From: a virus
Lineage: Duplodnaviria > Heunggongvirae > Uroviricota > Caudoviricetes
Virus record (IMG/VR): IMGVR_UViG_2565956731_000005
Location: 1-42,839 of that record
Length of the DNA: 42,839 nt
Reading direction: 5' to 3' (one strand)
The position numbers and the translations under genes were made by a program. Shown here in pieces: positions 7,296 to 37,508 of this stretch (positions are counted from its first letter, which is position 1; every line of letters begins with the position of its first letter). Under the pieces are notes generated by a model. The model saw nothing but the letters and a program-made list of their open reading frames with translations. It was not told where the DNA came from and did no database searches.

Positions 7296-7385
7296 TTTAC
7301 ATCGCACTCCTCTTGTGCCATAGTAATCGGGTACTGGCAAAATCCAGTGCCGGGATTGGCGTCCCGAGTTACTAAGTGGCGCATA

Positions 7386-7407
7386 CCACGCCAGACGTGG
7401 TTTTTTT
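7386..7407 (+). terminator. Rho-independent terminator in the ant leader
   Basis: CCACG-CCAGA-CGTGG hairpin followed by TTTTTTT, about 155 bp upstream of the ant start codon. Confidence 0.65.
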
Positions 7408-7563
7408 ATGCGTTAAGCACAGCTATATCCGAATTATGGTGGGCTGGGCAGGGGTCCGAAAGGACGCCGGTACCACTTAGGCCGGTACGCCAACCTTGTC
7501 CAGTTCACCACCAGTAATTGGCGTTGCGGTGGTGATTAAAATCACTAAGTGGAGATAACCACC

Positions 7564-25780: not shown

Positions 25781-25857
25781 GTGGCATTAGCTCAGTTGGA
25801 CAGAGCAACCGCCTTCTAAGCGGTTGGTCGCAGGTTCGAATCCTGCATGCCACGCCA
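25781..25857 (+). tRNA. tRNA-Arg (anticodon UCU), CCA end encoded
   Basis: Cloverleaf folded by hand: acceptor GTGGCAT/ATGCCAC, D-arm GCTC-AGTTGGACA-GAGC, anticodon stem ACCGC/GCGGT with loop CTTCTAA, T-arm GCAGG-TTCGAAT-CCTGC, discriminator G then CCA. Resembles argU. Confidence 0.9.
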
Positions 25858-33464: not shown

Positions 33465-34051
33465 GAATGCACTCCCTTGTGAAGCTGTTCCGCACAATGC
33501 AGCAGGGCGTCAGTCGCCTCTTTCACCGTAACGCAGTCGCCATCGTCCAGCCCGGACACCGACGCGTGCTTAACGAACGCCGCGCAAAGGTCATCAAACG
33601 CCTTAGCCCGGACTTCAGCCAGGAAAGCATCGGTGGCTGGGGTGTCTGATTGCATAGACTTTGCGCGATAGTCATTCCACCCTCTTGCATACATGGGATT
33701 AACTTGCACTCCATCTTTTACGCAATATGCCTGCCCTCCACGGTTGATAACCTTGATTTCGTCCATAGCGCCAGACTTCAGCCCCGCATTCTCCGCCGCC
33801 AGCGCCGAAAACTTCTCGTGTGCCAACTTAACAGCCGCATCAGCCTGCTTAATTGACTCAATCGCGCTCTGGTGGTCTTCGGCCAGCGCATTAGCACGCA
33901 CCAGTTGCACTTCCAGTTGCACTTCCAGTTGCGTTGCCAAATCGCTGATCAGCTTTGCCACACTGCGCATATCAACGGCACCACATTCAGCTTTCAGTTC
34001 CGAAGCCATCTCATGCCCGGCGGCAACTAACCCTTTGATATTACTTTCCAT
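33461..34051 (-). CDS. Hypothetical protein with in-frame tandem repeat
   Basis: 196-aa ORF; contains LEVQLEVQL encoded by 2.6 copies of a 12-bp tandem repeat at 33902..33933. Confidence 0.5.
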   Translation of the reverse strand: MESNIKGLVAAGHEMASELKAECGAVDMRSVAKLISDLATQLEVQLEVQLVRANALAEDHQSAIESIKQADAAVKLAHEKFSALAAENAGLKSGAMDEIKVINRGGQAYCVKDGVQVNPMYARGWNDYRAKSMQSDTPATDAFLAEVRAKAFDDLCAAFVKHASVSGLDDGDCVTVKEATDALLHCAEQLHKGVHS

Positions 34052-34112
34052 CTTTACCCTCGTTTATCCACATAACTTATTGATTACATTGATAACTAAA
34101 AAGATCGTCGAT

Positions 34113-34574: not shown

Positions 34575-35375
34575 TTACTTGATAAATCCTGCCGCCTTTC
34601 CCCGCCTGTATTCCTCCATCAGCCACTGCGCCGGTGTTATTCCCCCAAGGGTGGCAGCGTTAGGCATGCACCCGAAACTTCGTCCTGGTGGATGGTAAAC
34701 GTCTCTCCCTGTGTCCGGAGGCGTACTCATGGGCTCTGGCTTTGCCTGTATGCTGATCACCGGATCGGGTATCTGCTGTCCGGAAGCCACCTTTTTCGCC
34801 CAATCATCGAGCAGCCTGCGTGCGTGTTTCTCAACCTCAATCTCGCTAAGCTGGCGCTGATACATTGCACGGCGGGTATCACATACGACCCAGTACATAA
34901 CCGGATGTCGCCACGGGAATCTTTCGGGACCACCAGGATATAAACTTTTTTCCTTGCTGTACCGGTGAAACTCCGCCATCACATCGTCAATGGTGACGCC
35001 AAGAACCATCTTGCTGTCTTTGCACCACTTGATAAATTGCCCTGGAGACGGCCAGAACGGAGATTCACTGGCGCGGGCGTGGCGCATACCAGCAGAAACC
35101 TGTTCACGGGTTCGGATCCCCCCTTCGGCAAACGCAGCAATCCACTGCTGTTTTGCAGCAACTTCCTGCTCTGGCGTCTTCAGGTTGGTTACCACTGCCG
35201 CCGGAAACAGTTGTTTCAGCTGTTTAAAAAGGGCATCAACAAGCCTCTCTGCTGACATGTTCACCACATTGTCATTGTTGACGTACTGATGCTCATAACC
35301 TGACATGCGAGAAAGGGCTTCTCCGTCACGGTTTTGTATCGCGGTAAAAACGTTGTTCACAAGAAATCCTTCCAT
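34575..35375 (-). CDS. Replication protein P-like (DnaB helicase loader)
   Basis: N-terminal region aligns with lambda P as recalled (…EQVSAGMRHARASESPFWPSPGQFIKWC… versus lambda …EQVNAGMRVARRQNRPFLPSPGQFVAWC…). Confidence 0.8.
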   Translation of the reverse strand: MEGFLVNNVFTAIQNRDGEALSRMSGYEHQYVNNDNVVNMSAERLVDALFKQLKQLFPAAVVTNLKTPEQEVAAKQQWIAAFAEGGIRTREQVSAGMRHARASESPFWPSPGQFIKWCKDSKMVLGVTIDDVMAEFHRYSKEKSLYPGGPERFPWRHPVMYWVVCDTRRAMYQRQLSEIEVEKHARRLLDDWAKKVASGQQIPDPVISIQAKPEPMSTPPDTGRDVYHPPGRSFGCMPNAATLGGITPAQWLMEEYRRGKAAGFIK

Positions 35376-36172
35376 GCTTCAGGGCTGTTCCAGTGCGGAA
35401 CGTTGTTATCAGGTAATGTTGATTGCTTCTGTCTGCTAATCTGCAGCCGCCTTGCCAGCTTCTGCTCCCACTGTGCCTGATGGTATGCCTTACCCTCAGC
35501 CATCCAGTAAATTCTGAACTCTACAAGTTCCTGTGCCGTTGGCAGACTGTCCAGGTAGATCCCCTGCAATGAGCTTTTCCGAAGAAAGTCATCTGATGGC
35601 TGCCATTGTTCATGCATGACAAATTTGCCTAATTGCCCTGGCCCACCAGGAGGAACAAAGTTATTCATCACGGCGTTGTTTGCGCCGGGGTCATGAGGCA
35701 CAGAATCCCCGCTTTTTGTCCTGCTCTCCCTCTCTTGGTTAAATGACTGGTTATATGACTGGTTCTGGATCCCGTTTTTGGGATCATTCAACATCCCGTT
35801 TTTGGGATCATTCAACATCCCGTTTTTGGGTATATTCCCGTTTTCGGGAACATTACCGTTTTCGGGTTCATTGCCCCCCTCCCGGTTGCCTTTAATGTTC
35901 CCGTTTTTGGTTATATTAAGAGAGAAAACCCGCACTCTTTTTGTCGCTCCCTTTCTCTCTCCGGTATCTGAAATAAGCCCCATTTTCATGAGCGATATAA
36001 GCCCGGCCTGCACGGTTTTTTTATTCAGGCAAGTGTCTTTAACGAGGCGTTCTATGCTGGGGTAGCAGAGGTTATATTCATCGGCTCTGTCAGCCATCGA
36101 GAGCAGTATGAGCTTTAATGATGAGCTACCTGGATCTGTCTCCCAGGCCCAATCTGTTGCATGTCTGCTCAT
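35357..36172 (-). CDS. Replication initiator (O-like) with ori iterons inside the coding sequence
   Basis: N-terminal DNA-binding-like domain; central repeats (PENGNVPENGNIPKNGMLNDPKNGMLNDPKNG) are encoded by the iteron array, as the lambda origin lies inside O. Confidence 0.7.
   Translation of the reverse strand: MSRHATDWAWETDPGSSSLKLILLSMADRADEYNLCYPSIERLVKDTCLNKKTVQAGLISLMKMGLISDTGERKGATKRVRVFSLNITKNGNIKGNREGGNEPENGNVPENGNIPKNGMLNDPKNGMLNDPKNGIQNQSYNQSFNQERESRTKSGDSVPHDPGANNAVMNNFVPPGGPGQLGKFVMHEQWQPSDDFLRKSSLQGIYLDSLPTAQELVEFRIYWMAEGKAYHQAQWEQKLARRLQISRQKQSTLPDNNVPHWNSPEAWKDFL
35769..35917. repeat. Replication-origin iteron array
   Basis: Two perfect 24-bp direct repeats ATCCCGTTTTTGGGATCATTCAAC (35769..35792 and 35793..35816) plus at least four degenerate copies of CCCGTTTT(T/C)GGG, followed by an A+T-rich stretch. 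Confidence 0.8.
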
Positions 36173-36187
36173 GATTAATCTCCGCTA

Positions 36188-36388
36188 TCAGCTTGAGTGT
36201 TGTGGGGAGGAATTAATCATGATCTGCTTAATCTCTGCCCTTATGCGACGGTTTGATTCCATGGTGCACTCAACACAGTGTCCGTTGTAAACCCAGCGTT
36301 CACTGTCATGTCCATGCTTACATGGTTTTCCGGTGTAGTAGCGTTTAAGTCCGCGCTTTGCGGCATCAATACGTGTAATGATTTCCAT
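36188..36388 (-). CDS. Small Cys/His-rich protein at the cII position
   Basis: Likely start is the ATG at about 36388 (track ORF runs to 36451). Contains GKPCKHGH…NGHCVEC, a putative zinc finger; sits between the Cro-like and O-like genes. Confidence 0.4.
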   Translation of the reverse strand: MEIITRIDAAKRGLKRYYTGKPCKHGHDSERWVYNGHCVECTMESNRRIRAEIKQIMINSSPQHSS

Positions 36389-36490: not shown

Positions 36491-36515
36491 TATGAAAAGA
36501 CCGCCGGGTGGCGGT
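36491..36515 (-). terminator. Rho-independent terminator downstream of the Cro-like gene (tR1-like)
   Basis: On the minus strand: GACCGCC-ACCC-GGCGGTC followed by TTTTCAT, 24 bp after the Cro-like stop. Confidence 0.6.
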
Positions 36516-36538
36516 CTACAGAGGGTTGTGGCTGAATA

Positions 36539-36769
36539 TCATGAGTAGAAGAAGTATGCCAGTTCTGCTTTTGAGCGCAGCCATTGTCTTGATTTACAGG
36601 CTTTAAAAAGCCCATCCATCAATACCTTACCTGGCATTTTGCGCTTACCTGTTAAGTGAGTCTGGATATAGTGACTCGTCGTTCCGGCTTCCTGTGCGAA
36701 GGCTTCACGCTCATCCGGAGTAAGTGCAAGCCAGTGCTTTTTGAAATCGAAATGTCCGTTATCGCTCAT
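36539..36769 (-). CDS. Cro-like HTH regulator
   Basis: 76 aa with an HTH-like segment (EAFAQEAGTTSHYIQTHLTGKRK); divergent from the repressor gene, with operators between them. Confidence 0.55.
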   Translation of the reverse strand: MSDNGHFDFKKHWLALTPDEREAFAQEAGTTSHYIQTHLTGKRKMPGKVLMDGLFKACKSRQWLRSKAELAYFFYS

Positions 36770-36804
36770 AGCTATTGCCTGATATTTATTTCAGATAATA
36801 AATA

Positions 36805-36869
36805 TTCACCTATAAGGTAACAAAAATCAAGGATAGTTACCCATGAGGTGCATTTACCTGTTGGGTAAT
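36805..36869. promoter_or_regulatory. Immunity-region operator cluster
   Basis: Motif copies TTCACCTATAAGGTAAC (36805..36821), a weak GTTACCCATGAGGTGCA (36836..36852) and TTTACCTGTTGGGTAAT (36853..36869) in the 154-bp divergent region between the Cro-like and repressor genes, reminiscent of a three-site OR arrangement. Confidence 0.55.
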
Positions 36870-36923
36870 ATTGCTTTAAATTGAATCATCTTCTGATTCA
36901 GATATGAGGCGATTTTCCAGAAA

Positions 36924-37508
36924 ATGAAAAGTATCCAGGACGTCCGCAGGCAAAATCTCAACGACTTGATCGACCGTGAATTCAATGGTGTTCAGACGCG
37001 GATGGCTGAAAAACTTGGAACTCAGGCAAATCTGGTAAACCGCTGGGCTCTTGGCAAGAAGGTTATCGGCGACCAGGTTGCACGAAAAATTGAAGCTGCC
37101 GCCAATAAACCCCGTAACTGGCTTGATATCGATCGCTCGCTTTCTCAGGAAGGTTTTCAGCCTGTCGGCCCAAGCGACATTGGCCAGCTGGCGGCTCACA
37201 ACCTGGAACGCTGGATGAGCGAAAGCCGCGACCTTTCAACACAGGGAAAACTTCACCGCGCATCCGGCGTAGCCCAGGTGACAATCAGCCGCCTGTTAAA
37301 CAATGAGGTCAGCGTTTCCATTTCCACCCTGGAGAATGTTGCATCCGCATTCGGGCGTCACGGCTATGAATTACTGATTCACCCGCACGACCCTGCGACC
37401 ATCAACTATGACCGCTCGCGCTACGCATTGTTACCCGAAACCGAGAAAGCAAAGATCGAAAGTTACATTGAATTTGTCATCAACCAGAACGAAAAAAACA
37501 AACAATAA
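36924..37508 (+). CDS. Prophage repressor, tandem HTH (XRE-type), no S24 peptidase domain
   Basis: Two HTH-like segments (QTRMAEKLGTQANLVNRWALGKK and LHRASGVAQVTISRLLNN); C-terminus shows no Ser/Lys autocleavage motif; divergent from the Cro-like gene; followed by a terminator. Confidence 0.7.
   Translation: MKSIQDVRRQNLNDLIDREFNGVQTRMAEKLGTQANLVNRWALGKKVIGDQVARKIEAAANKPRNWLDIDRSLSQEGFQPVGPSDIGQLAAHNLERWMSESRDLSTQGKLHRASGVAQVTISRLLNNEVSVSISTLENVASAFGRHGYELLIHPHDPATINYDRSRYALLPETEKAKIESYIEFVINQNEKNKQ

What the first reader, a model, noticed from the sequence alone, without database searches (positions are those of the whole stretch)
35769..35917. Replication origin iterons embedded in the O-like initiator gene
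Two perfect 24-bp direct repeats plus at least four degenerate CCCGTTTT(T/C)GGG copies lie inside the O-like coding sequence, where they encode the repeated PKNG/PENG peptide, and are followed by an A+T-rich stretch. This is the lambda-style arrangement of an origin inside the initiator gene, with a different iteron sequence.
Basis: partly seen in the sequence, partly recalled or inferred. Interest (0 to 1): 0.4.

Follow-up and report, generated by a model that had tools for sequence, protein, structure and literature searches.

The report
Phage replication origin inside initiator gene
A row of six short DNA repeats inside a prophage replication gene is very probably the phage's replication origin, built like the classic lambda and phi80 origins, so it is a well-supported but fairly ordinary feature.

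Summary
Six same-strand copies of CCGTTTTYGG lie at 35769-35921, against 0.17 expected by chance and none elsewhere in the window. They sit inside a 271-aa minus-strand gene (35357-36172) of a phiV10-like prophage.

The repeats are a DNA element, not a peptide repeat. In 84 relatives from several proteobacterial classes, the core CCCRAAAACGG occurs in all three reading frames and almost only on the coding strand, and its synonymous codon positions barely vary. It always lies just after the N-terminal winged-helix domain. It travels with that domain, not with the C-terminal domain or with the P-like loader gene.

The core equals the annotated gp15-binding sites of phage phi80 and resembles lambda's iterons, so the sequence is not new.

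The protein is not a Pfam lambda-O member. It combines HTH_36 with a DnaT C-terminal domain, and profile comparison gives only a distant link to O.

The A+T-rich claim is weak. Instead, a conserved set of 12-nt GAAYC repeats follows the array.

Verdict: a lambdoid-type iteron origin, a new member of a known kind. Function is inferred, not shown.

The parts
35357..36172 (-). Initiator gene, 271 aa. N-terminal HTH_36 winged-helix domain, then a linker that carries the iterons, then a C-terminal DnaT-like domain.
   Evidence: ORF. Pfam HTH_36 1.9e-10 (aa 18-67) and DnaT domain 4.2e-15 (aa 184-252). phrog_1032 'replication initiation protein' 6e-108. PDB DnaT chains at E about 2e-20 over aa 180-265.
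35912..36172 (-). Coding region of the N-terminal DNA-binding domain (aa 1-87), the presumed reader of the iterons.
   Evidence: Relatives at 40-87% identity in 80 genomes. Profile-profile match to the HTH plus wing of lambda O, phi80 gp15 and P22 gp18: probability 81.6%, E 1.1e-5.
35769..35921 (-). Iteron array of six sites. Cores on the coding strand: 35901-35911 ACCAAAAACGG, 35856-35866 CCCGAAAACGG, 35838-35848 CCCGAAAACGG, and CCCAAAAACGG at 35820-35830, 35796-35806 and 35772-35782. Each core sits in a short dyad such as ATCCC-AAAAAC-GGGAT.
   Evidence: Family-wide conservation.
35867..35900 (-). G-rich spacer between the first iteron (in gene order) and the second. It encodes KGNREGGNE and varies among otherwise identical relatives.
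   Evidence: variants include REGG, LEGC, REGS, LDGC and REWS, while aa 1-87 are about 100% identical.
35729..35764 (-). Three tandem 12-mers on the coding strand: AACCAGTCATAT, AACCAGTCATTT and AACCAAGAGAGG. They are the local form of a family-wide GAAYC repeat that directly follows the last iteron, and are a candidate unwinding or single-strand binding region.
   Evidence: (D6). GAAYC occurs 3.08 times per 100 nt in the 60 nt after the last iteron, against 0.25 elsewhere in the genes. 48 of 71 genes have at least 2 copies, mostly 12-13 nt apart.
35891..35925 (.). Short A+T-rich patch around the isolated iteron. It is the least stable duplex inside the gene and an alternative unwinding site.
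   Evidence: 30-mer 35891-35920, -33.5 kcal/mol, about the 99th percentile of the window.
35378..35632 (-). Coding region of the DnaT-like C-terminal domain (aa 181-265), presumed to contact the P-like loader and/or single-stranded DNA.
34575..35375 (-). Lambda-P-like helicase loader gene. It overlaps the end of the initiator gene by 19 nt.
   Evidence: Pfam Phage_lambda_P 1.5e-56. phrog_109 'P-like helicase loader'. 31% identity to lambda P.
36498..36517 (-). Terminator-like hairpin between the cro-like gene and the replication genes.
   Evidence: The equivalent site in phiV10 is annotated as a putative rho-independent terminator.
36770..36923 (.). Divergent early control region between the repressor-like gene (36924-37508, +) and the cro-like gene (36539-36769, -). 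Leftward early transcription would run through the iterons.
   Evidence: Contains a promoter-like site at 36823-36795 (-) and the least stable DNA of the region.

Best explanation
The six repeats are the initiator-binding sites (iterons) of this phiV10-like prophage's replication origin. The origin lies inside the initiator's own gene, between the parts that encode its two domains.

Proposed mechanism, by analogy with lambda and phi80; every step is inferred, none is shown:
1. Early leftward transcription expresses the initiator and the P-like protein.
2. Dimers of the N-terminal winged-helix domain bind the dyad-symmetric sites (ATCCC-AAAAAC-GGGAT). Together they form a nucleoprotein complex on the array.
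3. The neighbouring DNA opens, either at the 12-mer repeats (35729-35764) or at the short A+T patch (35891-35925).
4. The C-terminal DnaT-like domain recruits the P-like loader carrying host DnaB, and perhaps holds single-stranded DNA.

What is shown: the repeats exist; they are conserved as DNA independently of the reading frame; they co-inherit with the N-terminal domain; they match known phi80 initiator sites.
For: 1. Real and non-random. There are 6 copies against 0.17 expected, and none elsewhere in the window.

2. Selected as DNA.
- In 77 P[KE]NG units from 84 distinct relatives, the codons are CCC 77/77 (background 23%), AAA 57/57, GAA 20/20 and AAC 74/77 (background 47%).
- The core with at most 1 mismatch occurs in frame 0 (PKNG) 116 times, frame 1 (xQKR) 38 times and frame 2 (VPKTE) 28 times.
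- 30 genes carry it in more than one frame.
- There are 182 coding-strand hits against 5 on the other strand.
- In all but one gene the hits lie about 200-540 nt into the gene.
- Spacings include 17, 22 and 25 nt, which are not multiples of 3.

3. Travels with the DNA-binding domain.
- Edwardsiella phage GF-2 has this N-terminus and iterons joined to a lambda-O-type C-terminus and a lambda-like P (55% identity).
- AP22 joins them to a DnaB-like helicase gene.
- SPN1S, Tyrion and TL-2011b share only the DnaT-type C-terminus and have no such repeats.
- Tyrion also has an 86%-identical P.
- Iteron variants follow N-terminal subgroups.

4. Same core as known sites. The annotated gp15-binding sites of phi80 read TTCCCGAAAACGGGAA. 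Lambda's iterons read ATCCCTCAAAACGAGGGAT.

5. Distant homology. The HTH plus wing region matches the O family at probability 81.6%. This agrees with the HHpred statement in PMC5509034.

6. Copy number varies between 4 and 9 among near-identical phages, as reported for lambda versus Stx phages (PMC7466680).

7. A P-like loader gene follows and overlaps the initiator gene.
Against: - There is no experiment on this phage or on any family member. No held paper mentions the sequence.
- No clear lambda-like A+T-rich tract exists. GC is 0.35-0.44 beside the array, against 0.23 in lambda.
- The N-terminal domain is not a Pfam Phage_rep_O member, so binding is inferred from co-occurrence only.
- Close phiV10-like genomes such as TL-2011b carry an initiator without such repeats, so an in-gene iteron array is not universal in this phage group.
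Confidence: 0.8

Rival explanations
1. The repeats are only a protein feature: a flexible, low-complexity PKNG/PENG linker that grew by replication slippage. The DNA itself would have no function.
For: All spacings in this window are multiples of 3, and the repeats read as a tidy peptide repeat. Copy number varies among close relatives, as expected of slippage.
Against: Synonymous positions barely vary across distant hosts. The same 11-mer is read in all three frames as PKNG, QKR and PKT, and lies at spacings that are not multiples of 3 in relatives. Strand bias is 182 to 5. phi80 reads the same core in another frame, as FPKTG.
Confidence: 0.03
2. The sites do bind the initiator, but they serve control rather than initiation. 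Possible roles are autoregulation, titration or handcuffing, or exclusion of related phages. DNA opening and helicase loading would happen elsewhere, for example in the very A+T-rich early control region near 36780-36840.
For: The flanks of the array are only mildly A+T-rich. The least stable DNA of the region lies in the intergenic control region. Iterons have control roles in plasmids (established knowledge; PMC4980987 was listed but not read).
Against: Position, orientation and core sequence match the origins of lambda and phi80, where the in-gene iterons are the origin. A conserved repeat element directly abuts the array family-wide. The control region is not conserved together with the N-terminal domain in other hosts (gene neighbourhoods).
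Confidence: 0.1
3. The conserved sequence is a junction that promotes recombination between phage modules. It would be kept because it allows N- and C-terminal modules to be swapped.
For: It lies exactly at the boundary where relatives exchange C-terminal domains and loader genes.
Against: The sites are multiple, dyad-symmetric and orientation-specific, and they follow the N-terminal domain only. Conservation of an 11-mer from Enterobacterales to Sphingomonadales and Desulfovibrionaceae relatives is hard to explain by recombination convenience alone. This role could still be a side effect of an origin.
Confidence: 0.05

Closest known systems
Origin of phage phi80: gp15-binding sites inside gene 15, followed by P-like gene 14
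   Same: The core is identical (CCCGAAAACGG within TTCCCGAAAACGGGAA). The orientation relative to the gene is the same. The sites lie right after the winged-helix domain coding region, and a P-like gene follows.
   Different: phi80 gp15 is Pfam Phage_rep_O with a lambda-type C-terminus. It has four sites about 21 bp apart, read in another frame (FPKTG). There is no significant pairwise similarity to this protein.
Origin of phage lambda with the O and P proteins
   Same: Iterons lie in the middle of the initiator gene. They are dyad sites with ATCCC/GGGAT arms around AAAAC. The architecture is modular: the N-terminus reads the origin and the C-terminus pairs with P. A P homologue lies downstream. 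Copy number varies among relatives.
   Different: Lambda's site is about 4 bp longer (ATCCCTCAAAACGAGGGAT). Lambda has a strong 40-bp A+T tract (GC 0.23) downstream, whereas here the flanks are weak (0.35-0.44). The domain families at both ends of the initiator differ.
DopC/DopE of Cellvibrionales and Oceanospirillales (Brezellec et al. 2017, PMC5509034)
   Same: The two-gene architecture is the same: an HTH_36 plus DnaT C-terminal domain protein next to a lambda-P homologue.
   Different: DopCE are chromosomal, domesticated genes, and the authors found no iteron-like repeats in dopC. Here the gene is in a prophage and carries six iterons.
E. coli primosomal protein DnaT (solved chains such as 4ou6, 6aep, 2ru8, 9zbt)
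   Same: The C-terminal domain (aa 180-265) matches DnaT residues about 85-170 at E about 2e-20.
   Different: DnaT has no origin-binding winged-helix domain and works in replication restart, not at an origin. The NCBIfam DnaT equivalog scores 82.7 bits against a cut-off of 201.
P22 origin in gene 18, with the gene 12 helicase
   Same: The origin is annotated inside the initiator gene, with repeats followed by an A-rich stretch.
   Different: The repeat is different (TCGGTAAAAC type). The initiator is Phage_rep_O, and the partner is a DnaB-like helicase rather than P.

Membership tests
Lambdoid iteron origin embedded in the initiator gene (lambda/phi80 type) | Four or more same-orientation repeats of a dyad-symmetric site inside the initiator ORF, between the N- and C-terminal domain coding regions. 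| tested here: met
   Six sites at 35769-35921, between HTH_36 (aa 18-67) and the DnaT domain (aa 184-252). The arms are ATCCC/GGGAT.
Lambdoid iteron origin embedded in the initiator gene (lambda/phi80 type) | The repeats are constrained as DNA, not as peptide. | tested here: met
   Synonymous sites barely vary. The core occurs in three reading frames with a 182:5 strand bias.
Lambdoid iteron origin embedded in the initiator gene (lambda/phi80 type) | Iteron type follows the initiator's N-terminal domain, while the loader follows the C-terminal domain. | tested here: met
   GF-2, AP22 and Her compared with SPN1S, Tyrion and TL-2011b. P identities. Subgroup variants.
Lambdoid iteron origin embedded in the initiator gene (lambda/phi80 type) | An A+T-rich unwinding tract adjacent to the iterons. 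| tested here: inconclusive
   GC is 0.44 at 35728-35768 and 0.35 at 35912-35945, against 0.23 in lambda and 0.35 in phi80. The family mean dips only 6-7 points for about 40 nt after the last iteron.
Lambdoid iteron origin embedded in the initiator gene (lambda/phi80 type) | A helicase-loader gene lies directly downstream of the initiator gene. | tested here: met
   Phage_lambda_P 1.5e-56 at 34575-35375, overlapping the initiator gene by 19 nt.
Lambdoid iteron origin embedded in the initiator gene (lambda/phi80 type) | The initiator binds the repeats, and the fragment supports initiator-dependent replication. | not testable with these tools
   Needs EMSA or footprinting and a plasmid replication assay.
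Lambda O protein family (Pfam PF04492 Phage_rep_O plus a lambda-type C-terminus) | The N-terminal domain scores as Phage_rep_O. | tested here: not met
   No PF04492 hit even at E up to 1. There is only a distant profile-profile link over the HTH plus wing: probability 81.6%, E 1.1e-5.
Lambda O protein family (Pfam PF04492 Phage_rep_O plus a lambda-type C-terminus) | A lambda-O-type C-terminal, P-binding domain. | tested here: not met
   The C-terminus is a DnaT-like domain. The lambda-type C-terminus is seen instead in the GF-2 relative.
HTH_36 plus DnaT-C initiators paired with a P-like loader (phrog_1032; DopC/DopE-like architecture) | An HTH_36 N-terminal domain, a DnaT C-terminal domain, and an adjacent lambda-P homologue. 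| tested here: met
   The architecture is described in PMC5509034.
Plasmid Rep_3-type iteron origins | Iterons upstream of the rep gene, with DnaA boxes, an A+T-rich region and a Rep_3 initiator. | tested here: not met
   The iterons lie inside the gene. There is no Rep_3 hit and no DnaA box in or next to the gene.

The most novel reading that the evidence does not exclude
The array plus the following 12-mers may form an ancient, portable origin cassette: CCC-RAAAAC-GG iterons followed by two or three GAAYC-type 12-13-nt repeats.

- Two very diverged winged-helix initiator families share its iteron core. These are the lambda/phi80 O type and the HTH_36 type, found in phages of Gamma-, Beta- and Alphaproteobacteria and in Desulfovibrionaceae relatives.
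- In this cassette the 12-mers, not a plain A+T tract, would be the place where DNA opens. One strand would be held there by the initiator, possibly through its DnaT-like single-strand-binding domain.
- That would link a restart-primosome domain directly to origin firing.
Probability: 0.25. Interest if true: 0.6.

Novelty: new member of a known kind. Interest (0 to 1): 0.4.

Why it matters
It places the replication origin of phiV10-like (Uetakevirus) prophages of E. coli; the phiV10 reference record (NC_007804) annotates no origin in the stretch retrieved around this gene.

It also gives a simple sequence rule for finding origins in hundreds of prophages from many proteobacterial hosts. The rule is the core CCCRAAAACGG just after an HTH_36 domain, followed by 12-nt repeats.

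The same site appears under two very different-looking initiator families. This suggests that the origin-reading code of lambdoid phages is much older and more widespread than the classic coliphage examples show.

The pairing of a DnaT-like domain with a P-type loader is worth testing for how the helicase is brought to the origin.

Tried and rejected
- Structure of the N-terminal domain. The single-sequence AlphaFold2 model had mean pLDDT 51 and was unusable, so no fold search was run.
- Literature. Searches for phiV10 or epsilon15 origins, for HTH_36 initiators with repeats, and for the iteron sequence itself found nothing relevant.
- Natural mini-replicon. An 8.6-kb Klebsiella 'plasmid' carrying a relative is a linear fragment with prophage genes, so it is not evidence of autonomous replication.
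- Terminator-like hits. The + strand hits inside the array (35779-35798 and 35803-35822) are a by-product of neighbouring dyad arms plus the T-run of the next iteron. Their number is not above the shuffled expectation.
- DnaA boxes. None lies in or beside the gene.
- Rfam. No RNA family matched in the region.
- Pairwise and small-profile comparisons with lambda O and phi80 gp15 were not significant. Only the larger profiles gave a moderate signal.
- The class counters in my script for one search used a faulty pattern and were ignored. Only the raw motif tallies were used.

Full report
**1. The observation**

- Two identical 24-bp units lie at 35769-35792 and 35793-35816.
- Four degenerate copies start at 35817, 35835, 35853 and 35898, giving spacings of 24, 24, 18, 18 and 45 bp.
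- The decamer CCGTTTTYGG occurs six times, all here and all on one strand. Shuffles gave a mean of 0.17 and a maximum of 2.
- The 11-nt core CCCRAAAACGG, with one mismatch allowed, occurs nowhere else in the 42.8-kb window.
- The repeats lie in a 271-aa minus-strand ORF (35357-36172) and encode TKNG...PENG.PENG.PKNG.PKNG.PKNG.
- On the coding strand each unit is a short dyad, for example GATCCCAAAAACGGGATG.

The 'A+T-rich stretch' is only weakly there.
- GC is 0.35 at 35912-35945 and 0.44 at 35728-35768, against 0.49 for the window. The lambda tract has 0.23.
- The least stable 30-mer within the gene is 35891-35920, around the isolated repeat.
- That patch lies on the N-terminal side of the array, the opposite of lambda's layout.

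**2. Context**

The window is a phiV10-like (Uetakevirus) temperate phage genome.
- The gene is 97-99.5% identical to genes in phages EC.W1-9, phiv142-3, PAS61 and phiV10. Most of the right half of the window matches such phages at about 97-98%.
- The protein has Pfam HTH_36 (aa 18-67) and the DnaT DNA-binding domain (aa 184-252).
- It matches solved DnaT chains at E about 2e-20 over aa 180-265.
- It belongs to phrog_1032 'replication initiation protein'.
- The gene that follows and overlaps it (34575-35375) is a lambda-P-type loader: Pfam 1.5e-56 and 31% identity to lambda P.
- Upstream lie a small ORF, a terminator-like hairpin, a cro-like gene and a divergent repressor-like gene. Early leftward transcription would therefore pass through the repeats.

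**3. DNA element or peptide repeat?**

I collected 84 distinct relatives of the N-terminal domain, at 40-87% identity. They come from phage records and from one genome per species. The hosts include Enterobacterales, Vibrio, Pseudoalteromonas, Marinomonas, Acinetobacter, Burkholderiales, Sphingomonadales and Desulfovibrionaceae.

Two results settle the question.
- Synonymous sites. In the 77 P[KE]NG units, Pro is CCC 77/77 (background 23%), Lys is AAA 57/57, Glu is GAA 20/20 and Asn is AAC 74/77 (background 47%).
- Reading frames. The core occurs in frame 0 as PKNG (116 times), in frame 1 as xQKR (38) and in frame 2 as VPKTE (28). Thirty genes carry it in more than one frame. There are 182 coding-strand hits against 5 on the other strand, and in all but one gene they lie about 200-540 nt into the gene.

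Spacings of 17, 22 and 25 nt are common. The family logo extends the site to about AA.A.tCCCRAAAACGG.A...Tt, which is roughly dyad-symmetric. This is selection on DNA, so the slippage-only linker explanation is rejected.

**4. What the repeats travel with**

The N-terminal and C-terminal halves of the protein have different sets of relatives.
- Edwardsiella phage GF-2 joins this N-terminus (50% identity) and GATCCCAAAATTGGGAT repeats to a lambda-O-type C-terminus. Its P is 55% identical to lambda P.
- Acinetobacter phage AP22 joins them to another C-terminus and a DnaB-like helicase gene.
- Vibrio phage Her has five perfect 24-bp units.
- SPN1S, Tyrion and TL-2011b share only the DnaT-type C-terminus and have zero core hits and no comparable array. 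Tyrion also has an 86%-identical P.
- TL-2011b is about 97% identical to this window over most of the compared 23 kb, so the replication module is mosaic even within this phage group.

Sub-families of the N-terminal domain carry their own variants at the same place:
- CC-AACAAY-GG in an Acinetobacter group, at 17- and 22-nt spacings;
- CCCAAAAGTGGG in a Halodesulfovibrio relative;
- CCGGAAACGG in a Desulfovibrionaceae relative.

I did not run a tree-aware test.

**5. Variation among close relatives**

Among 77 complete genes with essentially identical N-termini, the array has 4-9 sites. The arrangement in this window is the commonest, in 53 of 77. Proteins of 271-311 aa in E. coli genomes show the same variation. 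Lambda and Stx phages likewise differ in iteron number, four against six (PMC7466680).

**6. Comparison with known origins**

- Lambda's four annotated iterons read ATCCCTCAAAACGAGGGAT.
- The annotated gp15-binding sites of phi80 read TTCCCGAAAACGGGAA. This is the same core as the 18-bp units here (TTCCCGAAAACGGGAAT), with two exact hits in gene 15, read in another frame as FPKTG.
- P22's repeats are of a different type.

The iteron is therefore not a new sequence. What differs is the protein.
- phi80 gp15, lambda O and P22 gp18 are Pfam Phage_rep_O. This protein is not, even at permissive thresholds.
- Pairwise and small-profile comparisons are not significant.
- A 34-sequence profile against a lambda/phi80/P22 profile gives probability 81.6% and E 1.1e-5. 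The match covers exactly the helix-turn-helix and wing.
- This agrees with an HHpred statement in Brezellec et al. 2017. That paper describes the same HTH_36 plus DnaT-C plus P architecture as the domesticated DopC/DopE pair, which lacks iterons (PMC5509034).

**7. A second conserved element**

Directly after the last iteron, relatives carry two or three GAAYC-containing repeats, mostly 12-13 nt apart.
- They occur 3.08 times per 100 nt there, against 0.25 elsewhere in the genes. At least two copies are present in 48 of 71 genes.
- Here they are AACCAGTCATAT, AACCAGTCATTT and AACCAAGAGAGG at 35729-35764. One close relative has an extra copy.
- The family mean GC dips only 6-7 points over these 40 nt.
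- Their conservation could be partly at the peptide level (QNQSLEP), because the frame pattern is mostly shared. Lineages with 10-11-nt spacing argue for a DNA role.

I suggest, as inference, that this is the opening or single-strand-binding region.

**8. Mechanism, rivals and verdict**

Best explanation (confidence 0.8): an iteron origin of the lambda/phi80 kind.
1. Winged-helix dimers bind the six dyads.
2. The adjacent DNA opens.
3. The C-terminal DnaT-like domain brings in the P-like protein with DnaB.

Rivals:
- sites that bind the initiator but serve control only (0.1);
- a recombination junction (0.05);
- a pure peptide repeat (0.03).

No experiment exists for this family in the held literature.

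Circumstantial evidence: two E. coli assemblies hold a circular 41,027-bp molecule whose copy of the N-terminal and iteron region (first 147 aa) is 99.3% identical to this one and which has the same gene order around it. It has no recognised plasmid replicon.

Verdict: real, well supported and ordinary in kind. It is a new member of the lambdoid in-gene origins. The modestly interesting points are the wide, frame-independent conservation of the core, its sharing with phi80, the DnaT-like domain and the 12-mer repeats.

Noticed in passing
window 35867-35900: The G-rich spacer between the first and second iteron (encoding KGNREGGNE) is a substitution hot spot. Relatives whose first 87 residues are about 100% identical show REGG, LEGC, REGS, LDGC, REWS, REVG and other variants.
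   Followed up: partly
window 35768-35809: Three GATC (Dam) sites lie within about 40 bp and overlap the left arms of the 24-bp iterons and the last iteron. The window average is 4.04 per kb. GF-2 iterons also contain GATC, and many relatives have AAAGATCT just downstream. This may link the origin to methylation or SeqA control.
   Followed up: no
window 35729-35764, and relatives L004-L167: A family-wide set of two or three GAAYC-type repeats, mostly 12-13 nt apart, directly follows the iteron array. They are about 12-fold enriched there.
   Followed up: partly
window 34064-34072: A single perfect DnaA box, TTATCCACA, lies in the gap between the ORF ending at 34051 and the DUF1064 gene. This is about 1.7 kb from the iterons.
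   Followed up: no
window 25781-25857: A tRNA-Arg (anticodon TCT) gene sits in the middle of the phage-like sequence. It could be phage-borne or could mark an attachment site.
   Followed up: no
window 7331-7515: Rfam matches to the isrK Hfq-binding RNA (7331-7407) and the C4 antisense RNA (7432-7515) lie side by side, both above their gathering scores.
   Followed up: no
window 36188-36388 (-): A small 66-aa Cys/His-rich ORF lies just upstream of the initiator gene. It belongs to phrog_1081 (unknown function) and weakly resembles the N-terminus of endonuclease VII-type proteins. It is conserved in phiV10 as PhiV10p42.
   Followed up: no
L175 (NZ_CP079771.1, pHL15EC-2) and NZ_CP079768.1: Two E. 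coli assemblies contain a circular 41,027-bp 'plasmid' with a 99.3%-identical copy of the N-terminal and iteron region (first 147 aa) and the same gene order around it. It has no typed plasmid replicon. It looks like the phage genome as a free circle.
   Followed up: partly
L172 (phage TL-2011b), compared with window 20000-42839: TL-2011b and ZX5 are about 97% identical to the window over most of the compared half. Yet TL-2011b carries an initiator with a different N-terminus and no such iterons, and ZX5 matches this protein only over the DnaT-like C-terminus. The replication module has therefore been swapped within the group, and the origin of TL-2011b is unplaced.
   Followed up: partly
window 35357-35375: The end of the initiator gene and the start of the P-like gene overlap by 19 nt, which suggests coupled translation.
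   Followed up: no
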